From IMG/VR virus record IMGVR_UViG_3300009370_000002: a stretch of DNA of 64,000 nucleotides. One strand, given 5' to 3'. The position numbers and the translations under genes were made by a program. Source of the DNA: a virus. The notes below the pieces were generated by a model. That model did not search any database. It was not told where the DNA came from and saw only the letters and a list, made by a program, of their open reading frames with translations. This document shows positions 16,026-31,695 of the stretch, one piece after another (the stretch's first letter is position 1; every line of letters begins with the position of its first letter).

Positions 16026-16322
16026 CTAATTAAAAAATCTTTCTGAATTTATGTTCTTGTCATCAATAAATAAATCATAATTTGGTTTACCAAATTTCAA
16101 ATCATGATATTTGACACCCCATTTCTCAAATTGTTTCTCTGTGACTGCTCTCCAGTCAATTCCAGATGTTGTCCCTCTAGCTGTCCAATAAATTATAGTA
16201 TTTCCGGAATCATAAAGTTCATTGATTTTCATTATATTATTTTTCATTGGAATTGCTAAAGAATAATCTCTCGTTTCTGGTGTTTTGCATATTGTTTCAT
16301 CAATATCTACATATATTATCAT
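16026..16322 (-). CDS. Small HAD-superfamily phosphatase (capsule biosynthesis phosphatase-like)
   Basis: YVDIDETI motif I, WTARG motif II, KPNYDLFIDD motifs III/IV. Confidence 0.85.
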   Translation of the reverse strand: MIIYVDIDETICKTPETRDYSLAIPMKNNIMKINELYDSGNTIIYWTARGTTSGIDWRAVTEKQFEKWGVKYHDLKFGKPNYDLFIDDKNINSERFFN

Positions 16323-16330
16323 ATAATCTC

Positions 16331-17014
16331 CTAAATCTTTCCTATTAATACATCAGTTTTCAAATCATAAATTAACTTCCCAGGAAGCTTTTTTATTCGG
16401 CTCATTTCTGTTCCGTTTGTCTCAAATAAAATAAACCACCTCTCGACAGTACATAGATAATCTTTTATATGATTAATGATACTTTCTTCTTGCCCTTCAA
16501 TATCAATTTTTATTAATAGTGTTTTTGGTTTGGGGGCAATATTCTTTAAGAACTCGGCAATGTCACAAACACCAACTTGCTCTTCAGAATAAAATTCCGG
16601 TTGCTGAACATCGCTGTATCTTTGGTCTCTCCATTCCCATTTCTCAAGCCTGCCGCCTCCTGAGTATTTTTTGTGAAAATGGAACATCTGATTTGAACTA
16701 TTAGTACCAACTGCTTGTGGTATAATGTGTAGATTATCATACAGTAGTGCTGTTTTATTTAACGACTTTATTACCCAAGGGTTGGGCTCAAAGGCATATA
16801 TCTTTCCAACTGCATTAGATAAAGCGACTGAGAATTCGCCGTAATTAGCACCCATATCAATAAACACGTCAACTTCTTCCTTCTTGCATATTTTTTTTAA
16901 TAATGAGACTTTTTCTTTTTGGGTTCCGCCTTTATCCTGTATCCACATTCCTCTAATGTCACTGTCATTTATGAAGATTTCATTCCTATCATATATAATA
17001 ATTTTCTTTTGCAT
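16331..17014 (-). CDS. FkbM-family SAM-dependent methyltransferase
   Basis: FIDMGANYGEFS, YAFEPNP, LIKIDIEGQE. Confidence 0.85.
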   Translation of the reverse strand: MQKKIIIYDRNEIFINDSDIRGMWIQDKGGTQKEKVSLLKKICKKEEVDVFIDMGANYGEFSVALSNAVGKIYAFEPNPWVIKSLNKTALLYDNLHIIPQAVGTNSSNQMFHFHKKYSGGGRLEKWEWRDQRYSDVQQPEFYSEEQVGVCDIAEFLKNIAPKPKTLLIKIDIEGQEESIINHIKDYLCTVERWFILFETNGTEMSRIKKLPGKLIYDLKTDVLIGKI

Positions 17015-17910
17015 TAAAACAAATTCTCCCTTGCCAATATGGCTCTAAAGCTTAATCTCAAAGTGCCAACCGGGGTTGGTGTTCTTCTATGAAACATTCT
17101 AGTGTCTACAATGAACATGGTATTTGACTGGGCAGAGCATTTCACCTCGTCTTTCAATTTCAGCTTTTTGGCGCTTTCTTCGTAATCTGTCACATTATAG
17201 TGTAAGCGGCTCCAGTTGCTTTGGTTCAAGCTTTTCTCTTTAAGCCACCTAAGTCTCTCAACAGTATTAACATGAGAAGCCCTAAAAAAAGCAAGAGGTC
17301 CATGCTTCTCTTTTACTTCAAAAGGGTAATACCACACTTTGTAATTAGGATAAAATTTATCAACATGAAAATTATACTGGCGGCTATCTTCGTCCGCCTC
17401 ATCAAATACAGAATGTGATATCCTCCTTAAATACAAAGATTTTTCAAAATATAAATTATTTGCTTGACACAGTCTGAAAACATCCTGCATTTGTTTGTGG
17501 GATGAAATATCCATAAGCAAGGGCAAATTAGAAGATACTTTTTTTGTTAATGTATTTAAATTTAAAATATTCGTTTGTAAATGTTTTAATTTCTCCCTAC
17601 TCATTACATTGCTTATCTTTATATACCCGTTTTCCTTCAGAGAGCGATGGCTTTCGCTACCATATAACAAACACTTTTGCCGACTCTCTTCAAACTTTTG
17701 ATCGTATGCCAGCGCACGATACGCCTGGAGTCCTTTTTCGTTCAATTCTTTATCATCAATGAAATTATCTAAAGTTAAAACATTTACTTTTTTTTCACCA
17801 ATCAAAGTTAACAATTCGTACACCTCAAAGCCCATCGCATCGAAAAACTTTTTTTGATTATCATTATTTAAATAATATTCCACTGTCATGTTCTCTTGTT
17901 TATGTTCCAT
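17014..17910 (-). CDS. 2OG-Fe(II) dioxygenase (PhyH-like)
   Basis: FHVD (HxD), GPLAFFRASH, MFIVDTRMFHRR (distal His), R in SFRA. Confidence 0.7.
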   Translation of the reverse strand: MEHKQENMTVEYYLNNDNQKKFFDAMGFEVYELLTLIGEKKVNVLTLDNFIDDKELNEKGLQAYRALAYDQKFEESRQKCLLYGSESHRSLKENGYIKISNVMSREKLKHLQTNILNLNTLTKKVSSNLPLLMDISSHKQMQDVFRLCQANNLYFEKSLYLRRISHSVFDEADEDSRQYNFHVDKFYPNYKVWYYPFEVKEKHGPLAFFRASHVNTVERLRWLKEKSLNQSNWSRLHYNVTDYEESAKKLKLKDEVKCSAQSNTMFIVDTRMFHRRTPTPVGTLRLSFRAILARENLF

Positions 17911-18755
17911 AAATATTCTTGGTAATTTTCCCCAAGCTTTTCAGTGAGAACTTTTGTTGATAAATTACAAGGATGGCCATGTCCTAAATTTTTAAATTTT
18001 ACATCCTTACCGATGTCATGAAGTAAGTAATCCCACATTGACAAATACTGCTCCTCATAAATAGAAAATATTTCTTCTTCTGTTGAATTGTTTTCGACAG
18101 TTCCGTTGGGAGCCTTTGTTGTCTCGAATGTACTATTGGTGAATTTTAATTGCATACTTTTGTTAACATAGCCATCCATGCCAACAAAGCCTATTTCGCT
18201 TGCTCCTGCTGCGATTGCTATGCATGCTAATCGTGGTATACTCCCTATTCTGGAGTGGTATCTTGTAAAAGCCCAGAAAACACTGTCCGGGTACAAACGT
18301 TTAAACTTGCCCATCTCTTCAGTTTTAGTATATTTGTTTTCAAAACACACCACAGTATTGTTATTATCCAAGTAATTTAAAAGCTTTTTATCAAACAAAT
18401 CATTTTCATTACCAAGCGTCACTAAATCAATTGACGTTCTATTTAATCTGCTGTTTTTATAAAAATGATTACAACTCCAAACATAATCATACCCATCAAT
18501 ATTCGTACTATCTGTAAAAGAAGGGCCGGCACCTATTAAAAGTATTTTTGAGTTCTGAAATTTCTTTAAAAAACCATACTGCTGAAATGCCACTTCTTTT
18601 GTAAACTTAAAGTTTTCACTAGATAAATACTTTATGGCACCGCTTAAAAATGGACCTCCCATCTTAAGTCTTTTGAGAAAATCATTTTTATGGCATAAAA
18701 AACTCACTCTTTTAAAAGCAGAATTTGTTTTATATGTTTCACTGCTCCACTTCAT
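17886..18755 (-). CDS. Maf/DUF115/Cst-like nonulosonate transferase candidate
   Basis: ILLIGAGPSF, WSCNHFY, GFVGMDG motifs typical of the Cst/Maf Rossmann fold. Confidence 0.6.
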   Translation of the reverse strand: MKWSSETYKTNSAFKRVSFLCHKNDFLKRLKMGGPFLSGAIKYLSSENFKFTKEVAFQQYGFLKKFQNSKILLIGAGPSFTDSTNIDGYDYVWSCNHFYKNSRLNRTSIDLVTLGNENDLFDKKLLNYLDNNNTVVCFENKYTKTEEMGKFKRLYPDSVFWAFTRYHSRIGSIPRLACIAIAAGASEIGFVGMDGYVNKSMQLKFTNSTFETTKAPNGTVENNSTEEEIFSIYEEQYLSMWDYLLHDIGKDVKFKNLGHGHPCNLSTKVLTEKLGENYQEYLWNINKRT

Positions 18756-18946
18756 TTATCATTTCCAGCTAATTCTTCTGTCAATTCGGTTATTCGGACA
18801 TCACACTCTTTTATATCCTTAAATATTACCCTAGCTCGCTCGGGCGCCAATTTAAAACATAAACGCACTGCATCCATCCAATTGACATTGTTTTTTGCTC
18901 GTATTTCTTGAATTTCATCAATTATCTCTTCATCAGTTCTTTTCAT
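18752..18946 (-). CDS. Small hypothetical protein
   Basis: MKRTDEEIIDEIQEIRAKNNVNWMD...; start chosen after GGAG RBS. Confidence 0.6.
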   Translation of the reverse strand: MKRTDEEIIDEIQEIRAKNNVNWMDAVRLCFKLAPERARVIFKDIKECDVRITELTEELAGNDK

Positions 18947-18960
18947 CGGTAAACTCCTTT

Positions 18961-20289
18961 TTAAGAATGAAAATAGTTCATACAATATGACAAGCCACGC
19001 TGATAAATGTCGGGCTTTCTGTTGAACGTTATGTGATTTCCGCCTTCGCAGAAATTCCAATGAGCGTATCTAGGGCCTTTTAGAATCAAACGTAGAATCT
19101 TGGGATCAACCCTATATGATACATATTTTGTATTATTCATCTCTTCTTTTTTAATAATTTTATATCCTTTGCCATTGACTGTTAGTTCTAAGACTCTTTG
19201 TTCAGGCAAAAATATATAAACCACTGTATCGGAAGAAAATTGCAATTCTTTTCTTTTATTTTCAAAGCGAGAATATGATTTCTGCAACAATTTAATTATC
19301 TCACTTAAAGAAACTTCGCTATGGTTTTCGTATGAATATTTCACTTTTGAAAGAACATTATCAATATATTTGTCTCTCGCTTTATAATCAGTTGGGACAT
19401 ATGGAGAACTTTGAATTTCTTTTTCTATGTCGTATGACTCATACGAATTCAAAAGTATGCCCTTGCCTTCTTGCGTTTTAGAAAAATATTCCAAAGCATA
19501 TTCAATTGTATGAACTGCTTTATACTTTTCCAATTTTGATAATTTGCCGGCAAGTGTAAAAGTACCAGCAAAAGGCATATATACCCTTGGCTTCATAAGA
19601 TTGATAAATCTCTCTCCATTCTCCAGCATCATCTTTTTGTAATATTTTCCACGATAAATTTTATCACTATCAGAATAATTCTCGAAACACTGGGGGTATG
19701 CGCTAGCGCCGCAATACCCTGTTAACAAAAAATCAATTTTTGAATGATTTTTCATTATTCTTCTAACGGCATGCTGAGACAATTCAAACGGGCAATCATT
19801 TACATTAACCAAGGTATGTTTTTCATTATAAAAAACACCAATGGTATCGATAGTTGATGCTCTATATTTCTTTTCCATTTTCCCACAACCAAAATGTTTA
19901 AAACAGACTTCAGGATTACAATCGTCAGCAATATAAATACTCAATTTTAGTCCATCACCGCAATCAAATTCTTGTCCATGCTTTAGAGTTATAACAGTTT
20001 TGCCATAACTCTTCAATCTATTTTCTAATCCCTTGGAATAAAAATCATAGATAATCACTGGTATATCATTATTAAACATTCGTAAAGTTTCTTCATCTGC
20101 ATGATCTGCGTGGATGTGGGAAATGTAAATATATTTTATATCTCTCAATTTCTCACTATCCCACTCTACTGGTGGGTAGTGTGCCCATGAACCAAAAAAT
20201 GGTTTTCCGATTATCCAAGGATCTGTTAATACTTTTGTATTTTTATATTCAACAATAGTAGTGGCAGAAGCTACAAAAGTGACTTTCAT
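18961..20289 (-). CDS. CMP-Neu5Ac hydroxylase (CMAH)-like MBL-fold protein, no Rieske domain (copy B)
   Basis: DPWIIG, YIYISHIHADH, NVNDC, GASAYP, KPRVYMPFAG match recalled CMAH motifs (DPWLIG, YISHMHSDH, GASGFP, QPRIYCPFAG). Confidence 0.7.
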   Translation of the reverse strand: MKVTFVASATTIVEYKNTKVLTDPWIIGKPFFGSWAHYPPVEWDSEKLRDIKYIYISHIHADHADEETLRMFNNDIPVIIYDFYSKGLENRLKSYGKTVITLKHGQEFDCGDGLKLSIYIADDCNPEVCFKHFGCGKMEKKYRASTIDTIGVFYNEKHTLVNVNDCPFELSQHAVRRIMKNHSKIDFLLTGYCGASAYPQCFENYSDSDKIYRGKYYKKMMLENGERFINLMKPRVYMPFAGTFTLAGKLSKLEKYKAVHTIEYALEYFSKTQEGKGILLNSYESYDIEKEIQSSPYVPTDYKARDKYIDNVLSKVKYSYENHSEVSLSEIIKLLQKSYSRFENKRKELQFSSDTVVYIFLPEQRVLELTVNGKGYKIIKKEEMNNTKYVSYRVDPKILRLILKGPRYAHWNFCEGGNHITFNRKPDIYQRGLSYCMNYFHS

Positions 20290-20832
20290 TTAAAAATACT
20301 CCGGATTAAAACAAGCAACCAAAATTCTATCGATAGATTGTTCATTTTGAATATAATGGTTTTTCAGCCTGCCTTCAATTACCCAATTCGCCCTTGTGTA
20401 AGCTTTTATAGAAGCAATATTTGTTTCATAAATACCACCAAACAATTTTCGTATATTATGTTTTTCAAACGCTATTCGATTTCCAAGCTTAATTGCTTCA
20501 GTGGCAATACCCATGCCATGATATTTCGTATCTCCTACCAAAATTACCAAATCTGAAATTTTGTGTGCTTTATTAATTGGGCCAAGACGTATCTGTCCGA
20601 TTAATAAATTATTTTCTTTATAATATATGCCATAAGTATAGAGTGCCTCCGTTTGTTCTCCATGTAAAATAGAATTTACCACGTCATCTCTTAAAATTGC
20701 CTTTTTCGAACTTGTGTAAAGTTCCATTAATTTTTTATTCTGGAACCATGACATATATCTATCGTCTATTTCCTCGATTGATATTTTTTTTAAATATACT
20801 CTTTCACTCTCTATTCTATTATTCGGGTACAT
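20290..20832 (-). CDS. GNAT N-acetyltransferase (PseH/RimJ-like)
   Basis: YHGMGIATEAI, YETNIASIKAY; position within a sugar pathway. Confidence 0.8.
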   Translation of the reverse strand: MYPNNRIESERVYLKKISIEEIDDRYMSWFQNKKLMELYTSSKKAILRDDVVNSILHGEQTEALYTYGIYYKENNLLIGQIRLGPINKAHKISDLVILVGDTKYHGMGIATEAIKLGNRIAFEKHNIRKLFGGIYETNIASIKAYTRANWVIEGRLKNHYIQNEQSIDRILVACFNPEYF

Positions 20833-20845
20833 GTTTTCTCCTTTT

Positions 20846-21844
20846 TTACTCATCTAAGCCTACCCAGTCATTCTTAATAAAATCATCCACAGCGTATTCT
20901 CTTGTTGATCGGCTTCCTACAACATATTCGTACTTAGATGCGGATATGCACCCCTCCAAGTATGGCCTTTTTGTGGTGATGTTATCAGTAGTAAAAATAT
21001 CACCCTTTTTTATATCAACCTTGGCTATGACAGATCGCCTAGCTTTTACAAATTTCAACTCTGAGTTCGAATATAACTCTTTATTTGGTATCAGTGTTTT
21101 TTCTGCTTCTCTTATGATTTCTATCATCTGTTTCAATTGACAGGGCTCCACTGCAAAAGGATGATCTGGGCCGGGGAGCTTTTTGCTTAAAGTGAAATGT
21201 TTCTCGACAACTGTCGCTCCCAACATTACCGCAAAAGATGGAGTATAAATCGAGGTTGTGTGGTCAGATAAGCCAACTTTAAACCTTTTGTTATGTATTA
21301 AATTTTTAATAACACCCAAATTAATTTCGTTCATTGGTGTTGGGTAAGCATTATTGCAATGCAAAAGCGTTAAATCATTATTATGATTATCGGCAATTTG
21401 AATTATTTTATCTAAATATTCATCCTTGAAGCCTATCCCCAAAGATATAATCAAAGGCAAACCAGTAGATGCCACCATATCAACAAACCTAAAATCAGTA
21501 GATTCAAAGCCAGAAATTTTAAGCCTTTTTACCCCAATATCAACCAATTCCTCAACTGCCTTTTGATCAAATGGGGTTGACATAAATTCAATATTATTTT
21601 CATCACAATAAAGCTTCAAATCACGTTGCCATTCTCTAGGTATTTCTATATCTTTAATCAACTTAGGGATGTTGGTGTGTCCTGCAAAATCAGGTGTATT
21701 TTTACTATAAAGGGTTTCTGATGAATATGTTTGAAACTTAACTGCGTCAGCACCTGCTTCTTTTGCGGCATCAATTAAAGATAAGGCTTGTTTAAAAATT
21801 CGATTATGATTAGACCCGGCTTCGGCTATGACAAAAGTCCTCAT
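20846..21844 (-). CDS. neuB: Nonulosonic acid synthase NeuB/PseI family with C-terminal SAF domain (copy B)
   Basis: VIAEAGSNH, AVKFQ, FMSTPFD, LLHCNNAYP, GLSDHT, VEKHFTL. Confidence 0.92.
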   Translation of the reverse strand: MRTFVIAEAGSNHNRIFKQALSLIDAAKEAGADAVKFQTYSSETLYSKNTPDFAGHTNIPKLIKDIEIPREWQRDLKLYCDENNIEFMSTPFDQKAVEELVDIGVKRLKISGFESTDFRFVDMVASTGLPLIISLGIGFKDEYLDKIIQIADNHNNDLTLLHCNNAYPTPMNEINLGVIKNLIHNKRFKVGLSDHTTSIYTPSFAVMLGATVVEKHFTLSKKLPGPDHPFAVEPCQLKQMIEIIREAEKTLIPNKELYSNSELKFVKARRSVIAKVDIKKGDIFTTDNITTKRPYLEGCISASKYEYVVGSRSTREYAVDDFIKNDWVGLDE

Positions 21845-22809
21845 ATCACACTCTCTATTGGGCGCCATAGGGGAATATTTAATATTTTATGATGCAATTT
21901 TTCTAAAATTGGCAATTTTATTCCATCATTATAATACCCCATCTTATGTAACATGGGGTAATTTCTTGCCCATTTTGTTCTCTTAATTATTTCATCGGCA
22001 TTATCAGTTATTACTGTCCCAAAATAAAAAGAAGATTTTGAATCATGCTTAAGTAAATTATATTTGTTAAACAAAAGCTCATAATTGGCTTTTCTAGCTT
22101 TTAAATTTTTTTGATATCGTTTTATTTGAGTAATTCCTATTGTAGCGTTTAAGTTGTTCATATAAAATTTAAAACCATCAGTTTTTATATCATAAGTAAG
22201 ATTTTTAGAAATTCTACCAAAATCTCTATAGTTATTGAAATAGTTCGCAGCCTCACTTATATCAGTGGAAATCATTCCGCCATCAGAAGTGCAAATTGGC
22301 TTGTATGGGTGAAAAGAAAAAAATATAAAATCTGATTTAATTGTTGGCGTTACGCAATGAGCAGAATCAACAACAATTATTTCATCACCAAAGCCTTCAA
22401 AATTATCAATATTGCTAACTCCTCCATATAAAACTGGCATTAGAACTACTCTATTTTTAGTTTCTTTTCTAATTTTTCTATAGTGTTCGCAAGAAAATTG
22501 TAAATCATCTTGAACATCAACAAACATCAAATTGTGCCCAAAATGCTTAGCACACCAAGCAGGCGAAGTAAATCCTAATGAAGTAGTATAAACATCACAT
22601 ACGCCGAACCTATCTTTTAAATAAGAAAAAATCATAAAAGAAGCAGCAGAGGCTGAATTGCAAGCGATATTGTATTTCTTTTTTGAAAAATCACAGAACA
22701 TATTTTCAAAAACACTCACATTTGATCCAAACCCTATGTTACCAGAAAGTAATATTTTAGAGATATATTCAACATCCTCATTTAATAATTTTGTTTCAAA
22801 GATTTTCAT
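21841..22809 (-). CDS. DegT/DnrJ PLP sugar aminotransferase (PseC-like)
   Basis: ACNSASAA, VDSAH, FSFHPYKPICTSDGG with catalytic Lys. Confidence 0.85.
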   Translation of the reverse strand: MKIFETKLLNEDVEYISKILLSGNIGFGSNVSVFENMFCDFSKKKYNIACNSASAASFMIFSYLKDRFGVCDVYTTSLGFTSPAWCAKHFGHNLMFVDVQDDLQFSCEHYRKIRKETKNRVVLMPVLYGGVSNIDNFEGFGDEIIVVDSAHCVTPTIKSDFIFFSFHPYKPICTSDGGMISTDISEAANYFNNYRDFGRISKNLTYDIKTDGFKFYMNNLNATIGITQIKRYQKNLKARKANYELLFNKYNLLKHDSKSSFYFGTVITDNADEIIKRTKWARNYPMLHKMGYYNDGIKLPILEKLHHKILNIPLWRPIESVI

Positions 22810-23797
22810 CAGATTCCACTTCTCCCCTTTTTATTAATAAACAAAGTGATTCAACATCACCACTTACATGTAGCGATGAATTAAAATGACACCCAGTATA
22901 TTTTTCCCACTGTGCGGTGTGTACTCTTTTGGTATATTGGGGCTTTACGCACAACAGATTTACACCAGCAACCTTATATGTGAAGGGTAATTCTGTTTCT
23001 GCTAGCATGTCTTCGTGCAATTTTTCGCCTGGTCTTAAGCCAACAAGTTCATACTCTATTTTTTTTCCATGAATTTTCTCTATTGATTTCAAAATTGTTT
23101 TCATACCATATGATGGAATCTCAGGAATAAAAACTTCGCCACCCTCAGAATTAATAACCGCAGCCAAGACTGTATCTACTGCGTCTTCGATGGTAAATAA
23201 AAACCTTGTCATAGCTAGGGAAGTTACTTTTATTTTTTTATTATTTTTTAGCATCCCTAACCACAAAGGAATGAAAGAGCCCCTACTGCATATGACGTTG
23301 CCATATCTAACAGACGAAAACACCGTACTCTTACTATAATAATCATAATTTGTAAACACTCTTTCTGCTATAAATTTAGAAGAACCATAAACATTAACTG
23401 GTTGACATGCTTTGTCTGTCGATATTAAAACACATTTTGAAACACTGTTGTTTAAAGAGGCTTGTGCCACGTTTTCAGAGCCTTGTATGTTTGTTTTGAC
23501 GCATTCGTCTGGGTAGAATTCCATGTCGTCTATCCTTTTCAGAGCAGCGGTATGGATCACCACATCAGGACTATGTCTCATCATAGATTTATTCAATTTA
23601 TCATAATCCCTAATATCGCCTATCACTCTTATAATGTCCTTGTTATTGCCAAACAATAATGCTTGTTTGCCTTCATCTCTACTATAAACTATTGGAACAC
23701 CGCCATGTTCCAGTATCCTTCTAATCAGTGCTTTACCAAGAGTGCCAGTCCCACCAGTGATAAAAAATTTTCTATTATTAATAAAATTGCTTTCCAT
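22796..23797 (-). CDS. pseB: UDP-GlcNAc 4,6-dehydratase (PseB/CapD-like)
   Basis: ITGGTGTLG, YSRDEGKQ, STDKACQPVNVYGSSK, VRYGNV, GLRPGEKLHE. Confidence 0.85.
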   Translation of the reverse strand: MESNFINNRKFFITGGTGTLGKALIRRILEHGGVPIVYSRDEGKQALLFGNNKDIIRVIGDIRDYDKLNKSMMRHSPDVVIHTAALKRIDDMEFYPDECVKTNIQGSENVAQASLNNSVSKCVLISTDKACQPVNVYGSSKFIAERVFTNYDYYSKSTVFSSVRYGNVICSRGSFIPLWLGMLKNNKKIKVTSLAMTRFLFTIEDAVDTVLAAVINSEGGEVFIPEIPSYGMKTILKSIEKIHGKKIEYELVGLRPGEKLHEDMLAETELPFTYKVAGVNLLCVKPQYTKRVHTAQWEKYTGCHFNSSLHVSGDVESLCLLIKRGEVESDENL

Positions 23798-23805
23798 TCT
23801 TTCTC

Positions 23806-25140: not shown

Positions 25141-25832
25141 TTATTCACCATTGTTGAGTATAATTTTTCATACATTTTAAATTCCCACTCATAATCAACG
25201 TCAAAGCATTCCCTTTCTTCTATTTCAACCAATTCAATATCTCCGGGTTTGTTAAAATCTCCCATCCAAATAGAATCACCGATAGAGTCCAGTCTTGAAG
25301 CATATAAGCAGTGGGCTGCTTCGTATGTTATTTGAACATTTTTAGTATTCATTGCCGCATCCCTCAATGGCGTAATAAAATTGTAGTTTTCATCCCAAAA
25401 ATAATTCATTTTTTTCATAACGGCGAATGCCCCGTTGGAATCTGAATTCATATAATGAACAATAAATTTATCTATACTCTCAACAGTTAAAAACGGAGTA
25501 CATGCATTAACAAGAATTACATACTTAAAAGGCAATTTGTTCCACCATTCATATAGACCAGTCATATGAGCATCAGGGCCTCCGTCCCACAAGGCGGACT
25601 CCCTACTTCTTTCAAAAACATTAACACCAAGATTTTTGCCAACCTGAATCAACTCAGGCTCATGAACTGCCAAATAAAAATTTTCTTTGGGTAAAACATT
25701 AGAATTTAAAATTTTCTTTACGGCTATTTCTGTTAAAGTGGTTCCTGCAAACGGTCTTATCATCTTACGAGGGCAACGCTCTGACGACAATCTTGCCTGT
25801 ATAAGCACACATATATCTTCAATCTTTTTCAT
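25137..25832 (-). CDS. neuA: CMP-nonulosonate synthetase (NeuA/PseF-like cytidylyltransferase)
   Basis: LIQARLSSERCPRKMIRPF, NACTPFL, DVDYEWEF. Confidence 0.85.
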   Translation of the reverse strand: MKKIEDICVLIQARLSSERCPRKMIRPFAGTTLTEIAVKKILNSNVLPKENFYLAVHEPELIQVGKNLGVNVFERSRESALWDGGPDAHMTGLYEWWNKLPFKYVILVNACTPFLTVESIDKFIVHYMNSDSNGAFAVMKKMNYFWDENYNFITPLRDAAMNTKNVQITYEAAHCLYASRLDSIGDSIWMGDFNKPGDIELVEIEERECFDVDYEWEFKMYEKLYSTMVNK

Positions 25833-26186
25833 CTAGTCTCCTTTTATAACTCGATAGCTATCACTATCAAAATGTTGTGTTGAAAATTCAAACAACTCAG
25901 TATCTTCCATAGCATACATCTGGTGTCTTAAGCCCCTATATATGTGAAATCTGTCACCTTTTTGCAAAATTACCTTTTTGGCGCTCTCCAAGTCATCATC
26001 GTCTGAATAGTAAAGCAGTATCGCACCAGATTGAATGTAAAACACCTCATCCTTAAGTTTGTGATAGTGCCAAGAACACCTCTTACCTTTTACAAAATAC
26101 AAAAGCTTGCCGCAATACTCTTCACAATTTACAATCCACTTTTCAAAGCCCCAACCCTTTGGAACAAATTTTATATTATTATCCAT
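25833..26186 (-). CDS. Cupin protein (sugar isomerase-like)
   Basis: GWGFEKW, CSWHYHKLKDEVFY, HQMYA. Confidence 0.8.
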   Translation of the reverse strand: MDNNIKFVPKGWGFEKWIVNCEEYCGKLLYFVKGKRCSWHYHKLKDEVFYIQSGAILLYYSDDDDLESAKKVILQKGDRFHIYRGLRHQMYAMEDTELFEFSTQHFDSDSYRVIKGD

Positions 26187-27069
26187 TTGAAGCGATTTTT
26201 CCACCTTCGAAATATCGAAGCTTTTTTGCTACCGGGATTTCGTGTTGTAGAAACTCTTTTTGCCCAGTGCCTAAAGTATTAGTAACTTGTCTTGAATGAT
26301 GTATTAGTTGCCTTAAGTCATCTTTTTCAATTGATGCTGCTTGATCGGAGCCATACATTGTTTTATCCAGCGTTATGTGTCTTTCTATGGCAACTGCTCC
26401 TTTGACAACAGACAAAATTGATGGCAAAATACCAGTTTCATGCCCACTATATCCTACATGAACATTATATTGGTTTTTTAATGTCTCCACCATATTAATA
26501 TTGCAATCTTCATCCTTGCAAGGATAAGTTGAAACACAATGAAATAATGTAAACGGACACCCAGCATCTTTGAAAATTTTTACTGCGGTATCAATATCTG
26601 CTGTATTTGACATGCCAGTAGAAATAAAAGTATGTTTCTTTTCAGATGCAATCTCTCTCAAAAGTTCTATGTGAGTTAGCATGGCAGACGCTACTTTATT
26701 AAAAGGTAAATCATATTGTCTTAAGAAAATTTGACTTTTTATGTCCCACGCTGATGCGCTCCATAATATGCCCACATCTTTGCAATATGAATTTATTTCA
26801 TCGTATTGTTCTTTCCCAAATTCTAAACCTTCCTTTTGTTCTCGTTGTGTTGTTCCCCACGGACTTTGCCTTGAAGATGAAAGATAATGTTTAGTATAAA
26901 CAGTATCAATATCTCTTTTTTGGAACTTCACCGCTTGGCATCCTGCTTCGTGTGCCATATCGATAAGCTTCTTGCAGATATTCATATCGCCATTGTGATT
27001 TATACCAATTTCGGCAATAAAAAATGGTAAGTTTAAAGTATCCTGATAAGGATTAAAAGTGGTGCTCAT
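26179..27069 (-). CDS. neuB: Nonulosonic acid synthase NeuB family, short form without SAF domain (copy A)
   Basis: FIAEIGINHNG, AVKFQKR, LFHCVSTYP, GYSGHE, IERHITL. Confidence 0.92.
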   Translation of the reverse strand: MSTTFNPYQDTLNLPFFIAEIGINHNGDMNICKKLIDMAHEAGCQAVKFQKRDIDTVYTKHYLSSSRQSPWGTTQREQKEGLEFGKEQYDEINSYCKDVGILWSASAWDIKSQIFLRQYDLPFNKVASAMLTHIELLREIASEKKHTFISTGMSNTADIDTAVKIFKDAGCPFTLFHCVSTYPCKDEDCNINMVETLKNQYNVHVGYSGHETGILPSILSVVKGAVAIERHITLDKTMYGSDQAASIEKDDLRQLIHHSRQVTNTLGTGQKEFLQHEIPVAKKLRYFEGGKIASNG

Positions 27070-27078
27070 TATATACTC

Positions 27079-27942
27079 CTATTTTATATTATTATAAAGA
27101 ACGTAATTTCTACTAATTTTTTCAGTAATCAAGCTATTTTTCGTCAAAATCTCAATTTCTATTTCTTTCTCAGCCAAGTATTTTAAAATACCTTGTTCGC
27201 CTTTTTGACCAATTTGCTGTTCGCATTCATCCATATCAGATTTAAGATTGTTAACATTAAAATTTTCTGATATGTAATTGAGGGTTGGCTTAAACTCTGG
27301 CTCTGAATCATAAAAATGATTTATGCTTCCGTCTTTTTCTATTTTTGCGCCATCCCAACCTAAAATGCTAATTTTCTTTACCCCAGAGTGAACTAAGATG
27401 GGAATTATCATATCATTCATAATTCCCGGTCCCAATATTCTATTATATGGGCTATTATCTAAAGAATTTTCATGCCATCGATTTGACACAACAACAGAGT
27501 TAGAATGTCTTGCTGTGACATCCGAACCCCACAAAACATCAGGTTCATTATCAAAGCTTTCATTAAAAGTGCCCTTTTCTATCAAATCTGGGTTGACCCA
27601 ATTTTTATATCCGAGAGGCATCTCTTGTCTAGCAAGAACTATATAATCTCTTTCCTTTGGAAATTGGAACGTTGCATAGAAATTAGTAATACACACATCA
27701 GTTATATCTTTGAATTTTAATGTTGAAGTTTTGACGGTAAATACCGGCTTATTTTGACAAAATTCCTCTATCTTTTCTTTTGGAAACTCAGAAACGCTAG
27801 TGCCGCAATTTAATACCACACATTCCAAGCCCTTATAGATGTCTTTGAGCATCGCAGTTTTTAACAAAAGACTTTTCCCAGCAGACATTCTCTTATAAAA
27901 GTCTTTTCTTTGCTTTACAGGTATCTTATTCCACCTACTCAC
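27079..27942 (-). CDS. Maf/DUF115/Cst-like nonulosonate transferase candidate
   Basis: CVVLNCGTS, ISILGWDG motifs; adjacent to neuB. Confidence 0.5.
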   Translation of the reverse strand: MSRWNKIPVKQRKDFYKRMSAGKSLLLKTAMLKDIYKGLECVVLNCGTSVSEFPKEKIEEFCQNKPVFTVKTSTLKFKDITDVCITNFYATFQFPKERDYIVLARQEMPLGYKNWVNPDLIEKGTFNESFDNEPDVLWGSDVTARHSNSVVVSNRWHENSLDNSPYNRILGPGIMNDMIIPILVHSGVKKISILGWDGAKIEKDGSINHFYDSEPEFKPTLNYISENFNVNNLKSDMDECEQQIGQKGEQGILKYLAEKEIEIEILTKNSLITEKISRNYVLYNNIK

Positions 27943-28798
27943 TCAAACACTCCATAACTTTATAAGGCATCTTGCTGCTTACTTCTTCCATCTTATCTAT
28001 TAAATCTGCTCCGGAAAGAGAATACCAATCTTCAGATGCTGCTCCTATAAGTCGCTTTTGGTATGTCGTTTTCAAGTTTAACATCTTAGCTTCAACCAAA
28101 ATCCTAGCACAAGTTTCCAGATGTCCAGTGAAAAAAACCAACCTCTCAAACTTCGACATCTTTTCCATAAACTTGATAAAATTATTATCTTTTATCAATT
28201 CATATTCTAAATTGTTCTTTTCACAATATCTGATACAATCAAGTGTTCTCTTTATTGGGTTGGCTGAATCCATTATTGCAATTTTCTTTGTCTTCTCTGT
28301 GTTGCAAAATCTTCTTATAGATTTTAAATCTTTCTTTGTCCACACAGAAGAAGTCAAATTGCAGACATTATCCAATTCCGTGTTTAATACGAATATGTCT
28401 TTAGCTAACTTTGTCAGAAAAAACACAACTACAGCATTTCTATAAAACTCTATGTTTGCTAATTGGTCTTTTGGCGCTTTGAAATCAACAAACCCTATTG
28501 GATTTCTAGTCTTCAAATATTTATGATCTTGTTCATAAATTGCATACTTGAGATTATCAATAGCATATCGTTTACACTCTTCTTTTAAAAGAATGAAATT
28601 GGAGAAAATAAACTTCTTATCTTTGTTCTTCTCCATAAAATCAACAGTTATTCTTTCTGATTTCATTTTTTGAATATTGACACCAATATCGCTAAACCTT
28701 TCCACCAAAGACTCAGCATTTAATTCTGCGCCTCCTTTGATTTCGGAAAAGAAAAAATCCATCACCATTATTATATTATTCTTCGTCAAGTGCCTCAA
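27935..28798 (-). CDS. Glycosyltransferase-like protein (GT-B)
   Basis: GGAELN, YEQDHKY, ETCARILVEAKMLN; true start may be 28768 or 28762. Confidence 0.6.
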   Translation of the reverse strand: MRHLTKNNIIMVMDFFFSEIKGGAELNAESLVERFSDIGVNIQKMKSERITVDFMEKNKDKKFIFSNFILLKEECKRYAIDNLKYAIYEQDHKYLKTRNPIGFVDFKAPKDQLANIEFYRNAVVVFFLTKLAKDIFVLNTELDNVCNLTSSVWTKKDLKSIRRFCNTEKTKKIAIMDSANPIKRTLDCIRYCEKNNLEYELIKDNNFIKFMEKMSKFERLVFFTGHLETCARILVEAKMLNLKTTYQKRLIGAASEDWYSLSGADLIDKMEEVSSKMPYKVMECLSE

Positions 28799-30014
28799 GC
28801 TCCTTCATCCATTCTACAAACTCTGGCTCGGGTTTGTATATAGCATCACAAAAGCCCGTAAATAGCTTTTCTTCGGTGAATTTCTCATTAATGAGGGCAG
28901 CTAGCTCCGTTGCAGTAGCTTTGCATTTTGCCCAGTTATTGAACGTTTTACGCAGTGTCATCTTATACGAGCCCTGGTCGGCATATGCCCACATCGATTC
29001 CTTTTCAATTACCCCCTCCCATACTGCTTCTTTCTGAACTGGTTGAATTGTATATTCAACAGGCTGGAAATACTCTTTGTGATTGTGGTTTAAGAAATCA
29101 AGCTGCCCTGACCAACCAACAGTTATAATTGGGAGGGCTTCCCTGGCTGCTTCAAAAAGGGGGAGCCCAAACCCTTCGCCATGAGATATGTTTATTAATG
29201 CTTTTATCTTCTCGTTGGTATATAACCCTGCCATCTGCGGTGCTGATAAATCACCATGCAACAAATAAACCTTACATTTCCTTTCACTATATTTTGATAA
29301 CATGTTTTTCATCTGCTTGTTGAGGTGTTCCCAATCCATTATTGAGTTTCCAGTTATGTTGGTTTTGATAACAAGCCCAACCTCCCTATCGATAAATTCT
29401 TCTACCCACCACTTGATAGAATTGTCGAAGTTCTTCCTGGTACCCTGTTGGGAAACCATCAAAAAGTTAAAATCATATTCCAACGTCATTTCTTCTACTG
29501 GGGCTGGTTCTGCTCTAGGGGTTAACTCGTGGACAACCTCGACTGGGGTTGTAAGTTTATAATCAAACTTTTCTCCAGTCTGTTGGTTGTGTGCCTCTGC
29601 TGCTGTATTAATATAAGTGTTTTTTGCATGATTTGAAACAACCAAAATTTTATCCATATCATTGCCCTTTTGCAACCAAACTGGGGATACCTTTGTTGTC
29701 TCAATACCTGCTGTATATCCAATGTTGACTGGTGCAATTTTTTGGAATTCATTGGGAATTGTTACTTGAAGAGATATATCGGGATATAGCTGCTTTTGTT
29801 GCAACAATGCTTGTGTTGTCATTATCTTTTCGTCCATCCAATTCCGAAATTCGGATTCCTCCCATACCCAACCAGTTTTCCCCCAGTTGATTGGTTGGAT
29901 ATAGATATCAAATCTATCTTCTTTTGATCGTAAAGCCCTTAATGCAAATCGAGATTGTTCACCGTAACCCGATTGCGAGAGGACAGGGCCTCTTACAAAT
30001 ATTTTCTTTTTCAT
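28776..30014 (-). CDS. GT4-family glycosyltransferase
   Basis: SQSGYGEQSR, SHGEGFGLPLFEAA; start MKKKIF after GGAG RBS. Confidence 0.85.
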   Translation of the reverse strand: MKKKIFVRGPVLSQSGYGEQSRFALRALRSKEDRFDIYIQPINWGKTGWVWEESEFRNWMDEKIMTTQALLQQKQLYPDISLQVTIPNEFQKIAPVNIGYTAGIETTKVSPVWLQKGNDMDKILVVSNHAKNTYINTAAEAHNQQTGEKFDYKLTTPVEVVHELTPRAEPAPVEEMTLEYDFNFLMVSQQGTRKNFDNSIKWWVEEFIDREVGLVIKTNITGNSIMDWEHLNKQMKNMLSKYSERKCKVYLLHGDLSAPQMAGLYTNEKIKALINISHGEGFGLPLFEAAREALPIITVGWSGQLDFLNHNHKEYFQPVEYTIQPVQKEAVWEGVIEKESMWAYADQGSYKMTLRKTFNNWAKCKATATELAALINEKFTEEKLFTGFCDAIYKPEPEFVEWMKELEALDEE

Positions 30015-30030
30015 TTTTTTCTCCATTCAT

Positions 30031-30059
30031 AATATAACATAAGCTGTTATGGTTGTCAA
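30031..30059 (-). promoter_or_regulatory. sigma70-type promoter
   Basis: TTGACA-17-TATATT. Confidence 0.75.
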
Positions 30060-30430
30060 GTGTCTTTATCAATTTTTTTCAAAGAATAGCCAATGTACTT
30101 CTTTTCCTCATCGCCAATCATAACTTTATAGTACATGTTGTTTGCATTTTTGATTGTTATAAAGATGCCCTCTGGCTTTTTCTTTTCTACCACTATGCCA
30201 ATATCTCCCCTGTATGTTTCAACCAAATCACCAATCTCTATTTGTGGTTTCAACACCTCAATATAATCAGGATGGATTGGCATATCAATATCAAAAGTGT
30301 TGCCATATGGGGCTGGGAATTCCGCGTCATCATTAGGATATAATGGGCCCGAAAACCAAGAAGACGTAACAGGGTTTATCTGCAAGTCTGGTGGGACATA
30401 GTACGTCTTCTTCTCTTTCTTTTTGCTCAC
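30056..30430 (-). CDS. Hypothetical protein with C-terminal KOW/SH3-like GDLV motif
   Basis: IEIGDLVETYRGDIGIVV. Confidence 0.55.
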   Translation of the reverse strand: MSKKKEKKTYYVPPDLQINPVTSSWFSGPLYPNDDAEFPAPYGNTFDIDMPIHPDYIEVLKPQIEIGDLVETYRGDIGIVVEKKKPEGIFITIKNANNMYYKVMIGDEEKKYIGYSLKKIDKDT

Positions 30431-31695
30431 GCTACTTCCTTGAACTTTATAGTGCTATAATTTTCTCTAGCTTGCCAAGAGCCATGCTTGTTATATACTT
30501 CAAGCATTAAGTTCACCCAGGTTTCCTTAAAATTATCAAAGTTGTAATTTTTATTCACATGCTCTTTTCCCTTGTTGCCCATTGTTCGCCTCCCTTCTTT
30601 CCCCAATGCCATCATTTTTGTCATTGCTGAAAAGAAATGCTCCTTATTTATTCTATCTTCATAAATATATGGCACATCTTGAGAGCCAATTATAGCTTTT
30701 GATGAAGGGTATAAGGGTATGCCGAACCATTCCTTGCCATCGGTGATTTGCTCTTGTAAACCGCCCGTCATATTCACGATGATTGGGGTTCCACATGACA
30801 ACGACTCCAACGTTGCCAAGCCAAAACCTTCAGCATCAGAAATATTAATGGTACAATCTACCATGTTATATATACCAGATAAATTCTCTGGTGGTATTTT
30901 GTCAGTTGATAACAGAACCTGTCTTTGTTCGTCTAGCCCTAAATGAAGTATTATCTGCTCTAAGTCTTGGCCATGAGGATCTTTTGGCTCAGTATGCATG
31001 ATAAGTTGAGCTTTATCATGATTGTTAGTCTTGTCTAGCCACTCCTTAAACCACCAAATAAGGGTTCCAGATTGTTTTCTTCGAGCGTTACGATTATTCC
31101 AAAAGAATATAACCTTATCTCTATCTGTTGGTGGCAGGGTATTGTTTCGAATATTGTCTATCTCCTCGTCTGCTAATTGTTTAAATATATTTCCATCAAC
31201 AGCATGGGGAACATAAGTGCAATCAACATCAGGAGATACTGTTCTTACTATATCATCGGTTACTTTTGATATTGTTGCAATATGATCATTAGAATCGTAA
31301 AATTTCTTATTAAAGAGTGGGTATGGATAATTATCCCAAACATGATAATATACCATCGGCACTAAAGAGCGAATTTCATTTTCAATGTGCCAGAGCCAAC
31401 CGAAAAATCTAGGATCAGTCATAAACCATACCATATCAATCTTCTCGACTCTTATAATAGAGCGAATCATCTGAGCGTTTCCATAACCATCGATTGGTAT
31501 ACATGTCCAATCATCTTCATACGGCTTTATCTTAATATGATTGTAATCTTTATGCTTGATTGCACCGCCAAGAGAAATAATTGAAAACTTTCCAGTCTTT
31601 AGCAAAGCCTCACAAACATATTTTGTCTGTGTTCCTACTCCGCTAGGGCTTAATGGGTGATCAGATAAAGTCAAAATCTTAATCTTCTTAGTCAT
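30427..31695 (-). CDS. GT4-family glycosyltransferase
   Basis: NRNARRK, SDAEGFGLATLESLSCGTPII, TGGLQEQI. Confidence 0.88.
   Translation of the reverse strand: MTKKIKILTLSDHPLSPSGVGTQTKYVCEALLKTGKFSIISLGGAIKHKDYNHIKIKPYEDDWTCIPIDGYGNAQMIRSIIRVEKIDMVWFMTDPRFFGWLWHIENEIRSLVPMVYYHVWDNYPYPLFNKKFYDSNDHIATISKVTDDIVRTVSPDVDCTYVPHAVDGNIFKQLADEEIDNIRNNTLPPTDRDKVIFFWNNRNARRKQSGTLIWWFKEWLDKTNNHDKAQLIMHTEPKDPHGQDLEQIILHLGLDEQRQVLLSTDKIPPENLSGIYNMVDCTINISDAEGFGLATLESLSCGTPIIVNMTGGLQEQITDGKEWFGIPLYPSSKAIIGSQDVPYIYEDRINKEHFFSAMTKMMALGKEGRRTMGNKGKEHVNKNYNFDNFKETWVNLMLEVYNKHGSWQARENYSTIKFKEVA

What the first reader, a model, noticed from the sequence alone, without database searches (positions are those of the whole stretch)
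16026..31695. Phage-borne double nonulosonic acid pathway
Seen in transcription order: GT4, orf, GT4, GT-like, Maf-like, NeuB-A (no SAF), cupin, NeuA, CMAH-like A, PseB, PseC-like, NeuB-B (with SAF), GNAT, CMAH-like B, orf, Maf-like, 2OG dioxygenase, FkbM, HAD. There are two sets of [NeuB + CMAH-like + Maf-like transferase] sharing one CMP-synthetase, in a visibly AT-rich block. Known: PseB-C-H-G-I-F make CMP-pseudaminic acid, and Maf proteins transfer it to flagellin. Inference: the phage makes two different, further modified 9-carbon sugars to glycosylate virion proteins or remodel the host surface.
Basis: partly seen in the sequence, partly recalled or inferred. Interest (0 to 1): 0.8.

Follow-up and report, generated by a model that had tools for sequence, protein, structure and literature searches.

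The report
Phage-borne double sialic-acid-like sugar pathway
An uncultured marine T4-like phage carries a tightly packed 19-gene block, shared with related phages, that very probably makes one or two activated nine-carbon sialic-acid-like sugars, decorates them and attaches them to a target that is still unknown, possibly the phage's own particle.

Summary
Window 16026-31695 is one co-directional, overlapping array of 19 genes on the minus strand, at 33% GC against about 41% in the flanks. Confirmed are two NeuB-family synthases (28% identical, one without SAF), one CMP-transferase, a soluble 4,6-dehydratase, a DegT aminotransferase, a GNAT and two MBL-fold paralogs (43% identical). Also confirmed are a PhyH-like 2OG oxygenase, an FkbM methyltransferase, a 98-aa minimal HAD phosphatase, a cupin, GT4 and small GT-B transferases, and two unrelated "mini-Maf" (MptE-like) proteins.

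It is phage DNA, not a chimera. Independent contigs bridge both junctions at even depth, and at least 10 related viral contigs carry the module, three with a T4 gp23 capsid gene.

The names "PseB/PseC" are too specific. Every pathway enzyme scores below NCBIfam's equivalog cut-offs. In trees the phage NeuB-B, dehydratase and MBL proteins form phage-only clades outside bona fide PseI and PseB. PseG and NeuC/LegG are missing.

"CMAH-like" is only partly supported. There is no Rieske domain, and the nearest solved relatives are the diiron hydroxylases FrsH and CmlA. Related phages usually have one MBL, not two.

The sugar identities and the acceptor are not shown. This scan has noted phage nonulosonate pathways on other DNA 91 times; I found no paper describing one.

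The parts
30427..31695 (-). GT4-family glycosyltransferase (GT4a)
   Evidence: PF00534 45.5 bits, PF13692 39.5 bits. 54-63% identical homologs head the module in L004, L006 and L008.
30056..30430 (-). orf124, SH3/KOW-like mini-protein; probably not a pathway enzyme
   Evidence: No family hit. Carries the 'IGDLVE' motif.
28776..30026 (-). Divergent GT4-like glycosyltransferase (GT4b)
   Evidence: PF00534 19.7 bits, below the cut-off. 25% identical to GT4a. 47-53% identical homologs follow GT4a in L004, L006 and L008.
27935..28798 (-). Small GT-B-like protein of a widespread phage family; likely start at residue 11
   Evidence: Atlas: viral clusters at 0.95-0.99. One cluster has 65% of members with PF00534. 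Its fold also occurs inside longer viral proteins that carry a GT2 domain. No Pfam or NCBIfam hit itself.
27079..27942 (-). Mini-Maf 1 (MptE-like/DUF115 core only), gene pair with NeuB-A
   Evidence: Its homolog in G004 scores 33.8 (37.8) bits on PF01973, over the cut-off. The A3 profile hits MptE 8sd5 at E 0.03. It lies next to NeuB-A in L003, L004, L005, L006 and L010.
26179..27069 (-). NeuB-A: nonulosonate synthase without a SAF domain
   Evidence: PF03102 237 bits. Best solved relative is the SAF-less 6ncs, 150 bits. It sits in the viral_A clade (98*), nearest a Nitrosopelagicus sequence at 51% identity. Its sequence keeps AEIG, KFQ, SGHE and ERH stretches; that these correspond to the catalytic and metal positions of N. 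meningitidis NeuB is my recollection, not tested here.
25833..26204 (-). Metal-binding cupin (isomerase/epimerase candidate)
   Evidence: PF07883 31.9 bits. HxH...E...H pattern readable in the sequence. 62% identical homolog between NeuB-A and the CMP-transferase in L008.
25137..25832 (-). CMP-ulosonic acid synthetase (CTP_transf_3); the only one in the window
   Evidence: PF02348 41.1 bits. PseF 30.9 bits and KdsB 29 bits, both under the cut-offs. No paralog in the window.
23806..25140 (-). MBL-A: Rieske-less MBL-fold protein, candidate non-heme diiron hydroxylase
   Evidence: AF2 pLDDT 94.8. Among the best fold hits are CmlA and FrsH (Foldseek rank 1, VIA rank 3), tied with generic MBL hydrolases. 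The profile's best PDB hit is the FrsH diiron monooxygenase, E 1.7e-11. HxHxDH plus D148, D165, D186, H412 and H421 are conserved. JGI names relatives 'UDP-MurNAc hydroxylase'.
22796..23797 (-). Soluble UDP-HexNAc 4,6-dehydratase (Polysacc_synt_2), PseB-like but outside the PseB clade
   Evidence: PF02719 263 bits. TIGR03589 263.6 bits, under the 407.75 cut-off. Own viral clade on a 1.89 branch. GxxGxxG, STDKA and YGSSK motifs present.
21841..22809 (-). DegT-family sugar aminotransferase (PseC-like, short)
   Evidence: PF01041 111.6 bits. PseC 104.5 bits, under the 423.5 cut-off. SFHPYK lysine motif present.
20846..21868 (-). NeuB-B: nonulosonate synthase with a SAF domain, phage-only clade
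   Evidence: PF03102 242 bits plus SAF. TIGR03569 298 bits and TIGR03586 250 bits, both under their cut-offs. viral_B clade at 100*, outside the PseI clade.
20290..20853 (-). GNAT N-acetyltransferase (PseH-like role)
   Evidence: PF13302 49.6 bits. PseH 30.5 bits, under the 93.1 cut-off.
18961..20289 (-). MBL-B: second MBL-fold paralog
   Evidence: 43% identical to MBL-A over the full length. Basal in the phage-only MBL clade, 99*.
18752..18946 (-). Small conserved orf (about 64 aa from the internal Met)
   Evidence: The listed ORF overlaps MBL-B by 100 nt; the likely start is MKRTDEE. tblastn hits in L004, L005 and L073.
17886..18755 (-). Mini-Maf 2 (MptE-like/DUF115 core only)
   Evidence: PF01973 E 0.034 by itself. 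Homologs score E 5e-6 and 2e-4. Atlas structure TM 0.59-0.64 to PF01973 clusters. GAGPS and GMDGY motifs present.
17014..17910 (-). PhyH-like Fe(II)/2-oxoglutarate oxygenase
   Evidence: AF2 pLDDT 92.6. All Foldseek hits are 2OG oxygenases, including EctD, PhyH, KanJ, AviO1 and HygX. Invariant H182, D184, H274, R285.
16331..17014 (-). FkbM-family methyltransferase
   Evidence: PF05050 43.7 bits. TIGR01444 64.3 bits, over the cut-off.
16026..16322 (-). 98-aa minimal HAD phosphatase
   Evidence: DIDET, WTARG, GKP and IDDK motifs. phrog_1238 93 bits. 56-79% identical in the viral loci, the best conserved gene of the module.

Best explanation
The block is an old, phage-lineage-specific, fully soluble glycosylation module.

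Shown by homology and motifs:
- A UDP-HexNAc 4,6-dehydratase, a PLP aminotransferase and a GNAT build a 2,4-diamino-2,4,6-trideoxyhexose.
- NeuB-B condenses such a sugar with PEP to give a 5,7-diamino-type nonulosonate.
- A CMP-transferase activates it.

Inferred:
- A second synthase, NeuB-A (no SAF), always lies next to mini-Maf 1 and travels with a tiny HAD phosphatase and often a cupin. It makes a second nonulosonate, possibly through a phosphorylated intermediate.
- Two MBL-fold, probably diiron, hydroxylases, a 2OG oxygenase and an FkbM methyltransferase tailor the sugar or sugars.
- Two mini-Maf transferases and three GT-B enzymes attach the sugars in the cytoplasm to a protein acceptor, most likely a protein of the phage particle.
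- The nucleotide-releasing step (PseG/LegG) is supplied by the host or by an unrecognised enzyme.
For: - Family assignments and intact catalytic motifs for all core enzymes.
- A tight overlapping operon-like array.
- The core set is conserved in related viral contigs: mini-Maf 1, NeuB-A, mini-Maf 2, dehydratase, MBL, aminotransferase, NeuB-B, CMP-transferase and HAD. gp23 lies on the same contigs.
- Viral NeuB-B, dehydratase and MBL each form a phage-only clade (100*, 100*, 99*). This indicates long residence in phages.
- The mini-Maf assignment rests.
- MBL: the profile's best solved hit by sequence is the diiron monooxygenase FrsH, and CmlA and FrsH are among the best fold hits. Its commonest cellular neighbours are NeuB/PseI, DegT, epimerase/dehydratase, CMP-transferase and PseG-like genes.
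- No block protein has a transmembrane segment, and there is no Wzx/Wzy.
- NeuB-A's best solved relative is the SAF-less 6ncs, which I recall as a Leptospira protein. A Leptospira paper argues for a phosphorylated route for a synthase there that carries a phosphatase-like domain (PMC3438082); whether 6ncs is that protein was not checked.
- Contigs bridge both junctions at even depth.
Against: - No enzyme reaches an equivalog cut-off, so the sugar identities are open.
- PseG and NeuC/LegG are missing, so the pathway is incomplete as read.
- The acceptor is unknown and no virion gene is adjacent in this window.
- The HAD belongs to a PHROG that is common in phages and need not serve the pathway.
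- The MBL fold alone does not separate hydrolase from oxygenase.
- There are no expression data.
- A strong sigma-70-like site lies inside the block. If real, it would argue for early rather than late expression.
Confidence: 0.5

Rival explanations
1. Host-surface remodelling. The module makes CMP-nonulosonate(s) that are added to the infected cell's LPS, capsule, S-layer, pili or flagella. This would block superinfection or change receptor display. It is the role proposed for the 'LPS-related' genes in the hypervariable regions of marine T4-like phages.
For: - Pelagimyophage and cyanomyophage hypervariable regions are reported to be rich in glycosyltransferase and LPS genes, and are interpreted this way (PMC7029224).
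- A sigma-70-like promoter match lies upstream of GT4b.
- Bacterial Maf enzymes modify host surface appendage proteins (PMC4065374, listed).
- The missing PseG/LegG step could mean dependence on a host that itself makes such sugars.
Against: - No flippase, polymerase, ligase, ABC exporter or undecaprenyl-phosphate transferase is in the block, and no protein has a membrane segment.
- The enzymes form phage-only clades rather than recent host copies.
Confidence: 0.27
2. One sugar only. The two synthases do not make two different nonulosonates. NeuB-A is an isozyme, or it acts on another substrate class. The second MBL is a redundant copy picked up by recombination between phages.
For: - There is only one CMP-transferase in the window.
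- Relatives mostly have one MBL.
- MBL-A groups with the MBL of a different cluster type, L001/L002.
- The block differs in GC from the rest of the phage, while its closest relative lies in an all-low-GC phage.
Against: - The two NeuB lineages are only 28% identical and belong to different clades. They are kept together in 6 distinct related viral contigs, each lineage with its own neighbouring mini-Maf.
- L004 has two CMP-transferases.
Confidence: 0.18
3. Assembly artefact. The AT-rich block is host or other DNA wrongly joined to a phage contig.
For: GC drops from 41% to 33% across the block.
Against: - Logan contigs of three runs cover the flanks and the block at even depth (about 9, 7 and 5). 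They bridge both junctions: X1 record 1 and X2 record 10 on the left, X2 record 16 on the right.
- The module is on at least 10 other viral contigs, three of them with gp23.
- All three runs come from one study.
Confidence: 0.03

Closest known systems
Bacterial flagellin glycosylation islands (CMP-pseudaminic or legionaminic acid pathway plus Maf transferases; Campylobacter, Helicobacter, Aeromonas)
   Same: A soluble dehydratase, aminotransferase, GNAT, NeuB-family synthase and CMP-transferase lie next to MptE-like/Maf-type transferases. Glycosylation is cytoplasmic, with no lipid carrier machinery.
   Different: - The DNA is phage.
- All enzymes are below equivalog cut-offs and outside the PseI and PseB clades.
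- There is no PseG and no LegG.
- The Maf proteins are reduced to a core of about 290 aa.
- There are two synthases, and there is no flagellin.
Leptospira interrogans nonulosonate cluster with several synthases, one of them carrying a C-terminal phosphatase-like domain (PMC3438082)
   Same: More than one NulO synthase sits in one cluster. NeuB-A's best solved relative is the SAF-less 6ncs, which I recall as a Leptospira protein. A phosphatase is associated with the cluster.
   Different: Here the phosphatase is a separate 98-aa HAD, not a fused domain. The link between NeuB-A and the HAD is inferred from co-conservation only. Whether 6ncs is the synthase discussed in the paper was not checked.
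Hypervariable 'LPS/glycosyltransferase' regions of marine T4-like phages (pelagimyophages, cyanomyophages; PMC7029224)
   Same: A large accessory sugar-gene block in a marine T4-like phage. The closest module relatives are low-GC phage contigs, and the MBL sister group is mostly SAR11.
   Different: That paper does not use the words sialic, pseudaminic or neuraminic, the terms I searched it for. Here the block is a complete-looking nonulosonate module with phage-only enzyme clades.
MBL-fold non-heme diiron hydroxylases CmlA and FrsH; by name only, CMAH and NamH N-acetyl hydroxylases
   Same: MBL fold with HxHxDH. CmlA and FrsH are the best or near-best solved matches by sequence profile and by structure. 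JGI labels relatives 'UDP-MurNAc hydroxylase'.
   Different: - No Rieske domain, and none in the 150 best relatives.
- There is an own C-terminal domain with conserved His and no fold match.
- A Cys loop is present in about 75% of members.
- No direct comparison with CMAH or NamH sequences was possible.
Glycan biosynthesis pathways of giant viruses of eukaryotes (review PMC9614988)
   Same: A virus encodes its own nucleotide-sugar pathway and transferases to glycosylate its particle.
   Different: Those are eukaryote-infecting Nucleocytoviricota with other sugars. The review did not contain the term 'legionaminic acid'.

Membership tests
NeuB family (nonulosonate synthases, PF03102) | Full-length match over the Pfam cut-off, with the catalytic Glu and metal His motifs | tested here: met
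   NeuB-A 237.2 bits and NeuB-B 242.1 bits against a cut-off of 22.1. AE(I/A)G, KFQ, S(G/D)H and E(R/K)H stretches are present in both. That these are the catalytic Glu and metal His positions is my recollection of the N. meningitidis enzyme, not tested.
CMP-pseudaminic acid pathway (PseB, C, H, G, I, F) | PseI: score over the TIGR03586 cut-off and placement in the PseI clade | tested here: not met
   NeuB-B 250.3 bits and NeuB-A 185.4 bits, against a cut-off of 340.25. Both lie outside the 100*-supported PseI clade.
CMP-pseudaminic acid pathway (PseB, C, H, G, I, F) | PseB: inverting 4,6-dehydratase over the TIGR03589 cut-off and in the PseB clade | tested here: not met
   263.6 bits against a cut-off of 407.75. 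It forms its own phage clade on a long branch, outside PseB and the mid-tier clade. Catalytic motifs are present.
CMP-pseudaminic acid pathway (PseB, C, H, G, I, F) | PseG UDP-sugar hydrolase present | tested here: not met
   No TIGR03590 hit among the block proteins, nor in three related viral records (G001, G003, G004). It was found in the cellular controls G006 and G009.
CMP-pseudaminic acid pathway (PseB, C, H, G, I, F) | PseC, PseH and PseF equivalogs | tested here: not met
   PseC 104.5 bits (cut-off 423.5), PseH 30.5 (93.1), PseF 30.9 (205.7). The superfamilies do fit: DegT with its Lys, GNAT and CTP_transf_3.
Legionaminic acid pathway (LegB, C, H, G, I, F) | LegB/LegC equivalogs, a hexapeptide-type LegH, a NeuC-like LegG, and LegI over the TIGR03569 cut-off | tested here: not met
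   LegB 53.1 bits (cut-off 475) and LegC 59.4 (420). TIGR03569 gives 298.4 and 242.2 bits (cut-off 399.65). There is no NeuC/LegG in five related viral records and no hexapeptide transferase hit in the block.
Maf / MptE-like (PF01973) ulosonic-acid transferases | Match to the PF01973 core domain | tested here: inconclusive
   The window proteins by themselves give E 0.034 (mini-Maf 2) and no hit (mini-Maf 1). Homologs give 33.8 (37.8) bits, over the cut-off, for mini-Maf 1, and E 5e-6 and 2e-4 for mini-Maf 2. Atlas TM is 0.59-0.64. MptE 8sd5 is hit at E 0.03.
Maf / MptE-like (PF01973) ulosonic-acid transferases | Full Maf architecture (about 600 aa with N- and C-terminal domains; from my own knowledge) and a flagellin substrate | tested here: not met
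   The proteins are 287 and 289 aa. No flagellin gene was seen among the window ORFs scanned.
CMAH / NamH N-acetyl hydroxylases | N-terminal Rieske [2Fe-2S] domain | tested here: not met
   Neither MBL protein has a Rieske hit. The MBL fold starts at residue 1. The 150 best of 4908 relatives are 156-471 aa, too short for an added Rieske domain.
CMAH / NamH N-acetyl hydroxylases | Sequence similarity of the catalytic domain to CMAH or NamH | not testable with these tools
   No reference sequence could be fetched. The only link is JGI's automatic name 'UDP-MurNAc hydroxylase' for relatives.
MBL-fold non-heme diiron hydroxylases (CmlA/FrsH type) | MBL fold with HxHxDH and carboxylate-rich ligands; closest solved relatives | tested here: inconclusive
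   FrsH E 1.7e-11 and CmlA E 4e-8, but the hydrolase SaxA E 2.8e-10 lies between them. CmlA gives Z 20.9 and a generic hydrolase gives Z 22.0. H58, H60, D62, H63, D148, D165 and D186 are conserved and there is no motif-3 His.
PhyH-like Fe(II)/2OG oxygenases | Double-stranded beta-helix fold with an HxD...H triad and a 2OG-binding Arg | tested here: met
   One homolog carries PF05721.
HAD phosphatases | Motifs I-IV (DxDxT, S/T, K, DD) | tested here: met
   D6-I-D8-E-T10, T47, K79 and D87-D88, read directly from the sequence. phrog_1238 93.1 bits. TIGR01689 E 3e-5, under the cut-off.
T4-like phage (context) | gp23-type major capsid gene on the same molecule as the module | tested here: met
PF07068 scores 207-251 bits on G001, G003 and G005, which carry the related module. 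The window itself holds PhoH, an exonuclease, a DNA methyltransferase and M23 peptidases.

The most novel reading that the evidence does not exclude
Marine T4-like phages have long carried their own nonulosonate system. In it, Rieske-less CMAH/NamH-like diiron hydroxylases turn the N-acetyl groups of phage-made sialic-acid-like sugars into N-glycolyl-type groups, two enzymes for two N-acyl groups or for two sugars. These groups are then further oxidised and methylated. Stripped-down Maf transferases put the sugars on virion proteins. The ocean's phage particles would then carry a phage-specific, Neu5Gc-like coat.
Probability: 0.12. Interest if true: 0.85.

Novelty: new variant of a known kind. 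Interest (0 to 1): 0.6.

Why it matters
Nonulosonic acids are known as surface sugars of animals, bacteria and archaea. I found no paper that describes a phage making them. PHROGs has no NeuB, MBL, CMP-transferase or mini-Maf family that matches. Only 3 of 50,697 GenBank phage records hold a NeuB homolog, and one of those is filed under Moritella viscosa.

Here the pathway enzymes form phage-only clades, so this is an old viral trait rather than a recent host pick-up. If the sugars coat virions, they would affect adsorption, grazing, aggregation and persistence of abundant marine phages.

The work also flags a large uncharacterised MBL-fold family of about 440 aa, with at least 4,900 representative clusters. 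It is a recurrent accessory of nonulosonate clusters in SAR11, Flavobacteria, Thaumarchaeota and haloarchaea, and is a candidate for the unknown N-acyl hydroxylation step.

Tried and rejected
Contexts came from the search for related loci and the genome search instead.
- Megablast of the block against GenBank phages found no match. tblastn of MBL-A found none.
- The search for related loci with the single protein found nothing. The alignment query was needed.
- hhalign of the two mini-Maf families aligned only one 22-residue motif, probability 10%. I do not claim they are homologs of each other.
- I rejected the idea that the MBL replaces PseG. PseG, PseI and the MBL lie together in Aliiglaciecola (G006) and Halobacillus (G009).
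- The late-promoter word TATAAATA gave 7 matches against 4.4 expected, not enriched. Sigma-70-like sites gave 67 against 73.8 expected. No timing can be read from these.
- No RNA holder was listed among the sequencing runs.
- The C-terminal domain of the MBL (about residues 300-444) gave no fold match.
- Pfam found nothing for the >3065-aa ORF or the 995-aa ORF.
- A direct comparison with CMAH or NamH was not possible, because no reference sequence was available.
- Genome G049 (unpublished) appeared in two search tables.

Full report
**1. What is there.**
Between 16026 and 31695 all genes run on the minus strand. They overlap or abut with gaps of at most 29 nt. GC falls from about 0.41 to about 0.33, and GC3 from about 0.40 to about 0.30.

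- GT4.
- A small orf.
- A weak GT4.
- Two proteins of 287 aa without a family.
- NeuB without SAF.
- A cupin.
- CTP_transf_3.
- A 444-aa MBL-fold protein.
- A Polysacc_synt_2 dehydratase.
- A DegT aminotransferase.
- NeuB with SAF.
- A GNAT.
- A 442-aa MBL-fold protein.
- A small orf.
- A 289-aa and a 298-aa protein without a family.
- FkbM.
- A 98-aa protein.

MBL-A and MBL-B are 43% identical over their whole length. The two NeuB proteins are 28% identical. There is one CMP-transferase.

**2. The proteins without a family.**
- *The 298-aa protein.* It folds at pLDDT 92.6 and matches only PhyH-type Fe(II)/2OG oxygenases. H182-x-D184, H274 and R285 are invariant.
- *The 98-aa protein.* It has all four HAD motifs and belongs to phrog_1238.
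- *The 289-aa and one of the 287-aa proteins.* These are core-only members of the MptE-like/Maf family. Their homologs on related viral records hit PF01973, one over the cut-off. The Atlas model of the 289-aa protein aligns to PF01973 clusters at TM 0.59-0.64. The profile of the 287-aa family touches MptE. The two families are not detectably related to each other.
- *The other 287-aa protein.* It belongs to a large phage family of small GT-B-like proteins.

**3. Phage or host?**
The flanks hold PhoH, an exonuclease, a DNA methyltransferase and M23 peptidases. Earlier notes call this genome an uncultured marine T4-like phage of about 195 kb.

An alignment of MBL relatives found 12 IMG/VR contigs. 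Eleven of them (ten distinct, since L001 and L002 give identical hit profiles) hold further module genes beside the MBL. Six of the eight I mapped have both NeuB lineages and both mini-Mafs. Three of the five whole records I checked carry a gp23 capsid gene.

Logan contigs from three runs of one study cover the block and the flanks at even depth and bridge both junctions. A chimera is therefore very unlikely.

The low GC fits exchange between phages. The most similar module (L004; dehydratase 76% and HAD 79% identical) lies in a phage that is about 33% GC throughout.

**4. Which sugars?**
None of the enzymes reaches an NCBIfam equivalog cut-off.

I built a tree with 13 PseI and 8 NeuB/LegI sequences that pass their cut-offs. 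In it the PseI clade is split off with full support and holds neither phage synthase. NeuB-B sits in a phage-only clade (100*). NeuB-A sits in a second phage clade of SAF-less enzymes. Its nearest neighbour is a Nitrosopelagicus single-cell genome sequence at 51% identity.

The best solved relatives are:
- C. jejuni-type PseI for NeuB-B (8h2c).
- A SAF-less synthase for NeuB-A (6ncs, which I recall as a Leptospira protein).

The dehydratase keeps the STDKA and YxxxK motifs. It forms a phage-only clade on a very long branch, outside bona fide PseB.

PseG and NeuC/LegG were not found in the block or in the related viral records searched.

The context is Pse-like:
- a short soluble dehydratase;
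- a GNAT rather than a hexapeptide transferase;
- no 2-epimerase.

The stereochemistry cannot be called from this.

For NeuB-A several points allow a phosphorylated route, to a Kdn-like or Neu-like sugar:
- the conserved HAD;
- the cupin;
- a phosphomannomutase elsewhere in the window;
- the Leptospira precedent for a phosphatase-linked synthase (PMC3438082).

This route is inference only.

**5. The MBL-fold proteins.**
The family is large: 4908 representative clusters at E <= 0.001. The 150 best hits are 156-471 aa, the full-length ones about 440 aa, and none is long enough to hold a fused Rieske domain. JGI labels members 'UDP-MurNAc hydroxylase'.

The model has pLDDT 94.8. Residues 1-290 form an MBL fold. 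CmlA, FrsH and generic hydrolases tie at Z 20-22. By profile the best solved hit is the diiron monooxygenase FrsH, followed by the hydrolase SaxA and then CmlA.

Conserved residues are H58, H60, D62, H63, D148, D165, D186, H412 and H421. A Cys loop is present in about three quarters of members.

In cells the commonest neighbours are NeuB/PseI, DegT, epimerase/dehydratase, CMP-transferase and PseG-like genes. PseG and the MBL co-occur. The MBL is therefore a tailoring enzyme rather than the missing hydrolase.

All 11 phage MBLs, including both window copies, form one clade (99*). MBL-A groups with L001/L002 and MBL-B is basal. The sister group is mostly SAR11; composition bias may contribute to that placement. 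'CMAH-like' thus remains a plausible working label. The Rieske feature is not met, and the direct comparison was not done.

**6. Mechanism and target.**
No block protein has a membrane segment, and no flippase, polymerase or exporter is present. This, together with Maf-type transferases, favours cytoplasmic protein glycosylation. I consider phage particle proteins the likeliest acceptor.

The published reading of sugar genes in marine T4-like phages is host O-chain modification (PMC7029224). That remains a serious rival.

**7. Novelty.**
I found no paper on phage-encoded nonulosonate synthesis. PHROGs and GenBank phages are almost blank for these genes.

This scan has noted such pathways on other DNA 91 times in at least 82 genomes, so the theme is recurrent. 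What this case adds:
- the double synthase;
- the phage-only clades;
- the MBL family.

Noticed in passing
window 31688-32704 (-): GlnII-type glutamine synthetase (NF041605, 559.9 bits, over the cut-off of 500). It lies directly upstream of the first GT4 gene and overlaps it. This is an unusual metabolic gene for a phage and might feed the amino-sugar pathway.
   Followed up: no
window 42882-43673 (-): Eukaryotic-type phosphomannomutase (PF03332, 125 bits), 11 kb from the block. It could supply mannose phosphates.
   Followed up: no
window 30056-30430 (-): orf124, between the two GT4 genes, carries an 'IGDLVE' SH3/KOW-like motif. It resembles the mini-gene arrays noted elsewhere in this genome.
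   Followed up: no
window 30031-30059 (-): The best sigma-70-like match of the region (TTGACA-17-TATATT with TG, 11 of 12). It lies in the only intergenic gap of the block, just upstream of GT4b.
   Followed up: partly
window 2-9199 (-), 10292-11482 (-), 12952-14265 (-): An open reading frame of more than 3065 aa with no Pfam hit, followed by two paralogous M23-peptidase proteins. These may be virion-associated proteins.
   Followed up: partly
window 47345-48448 (-): A NUDIX protein whose N-terminus matches phrog_1238, the same HAD-like family as the 98-aa HAD of the block.
   Followed up: no
L106 (G010, Candidatus Nitrosopelagicus SAG), about 1495-2330: A SAF-less NeuB that is the nearest sequence to the window's NeuB-A (51% identical, 98* support). 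It lies about 15 kb from that genome's own NeuB + MBL cluster. It could reflect gene transfer or viral DNA in the single-cell assembly.
   Followed up: partly
window 23806-25140 and 18961-20289; alignment A4: A Cys loop (C124, C129, C135, plus C166 and C201) in the MBL family. It has low model confidence and is present in about 75% of members. It may be an Fe-S or Zn site.
   Followed up: partly
L006 3752-5746; G001 128252-128515: A 664-aa fusion protein whose C-terminal part is the mini-Maf 1 domain. Separately, a third MptE-like ORF lies far from the module in a related phage.
   Followed up: no
window 34041-34757 (-): A 238-aa protein with weak, sub-threshold matches to zinc metallopeptidase families (ATLF and M90 domains).
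   Followed up: no
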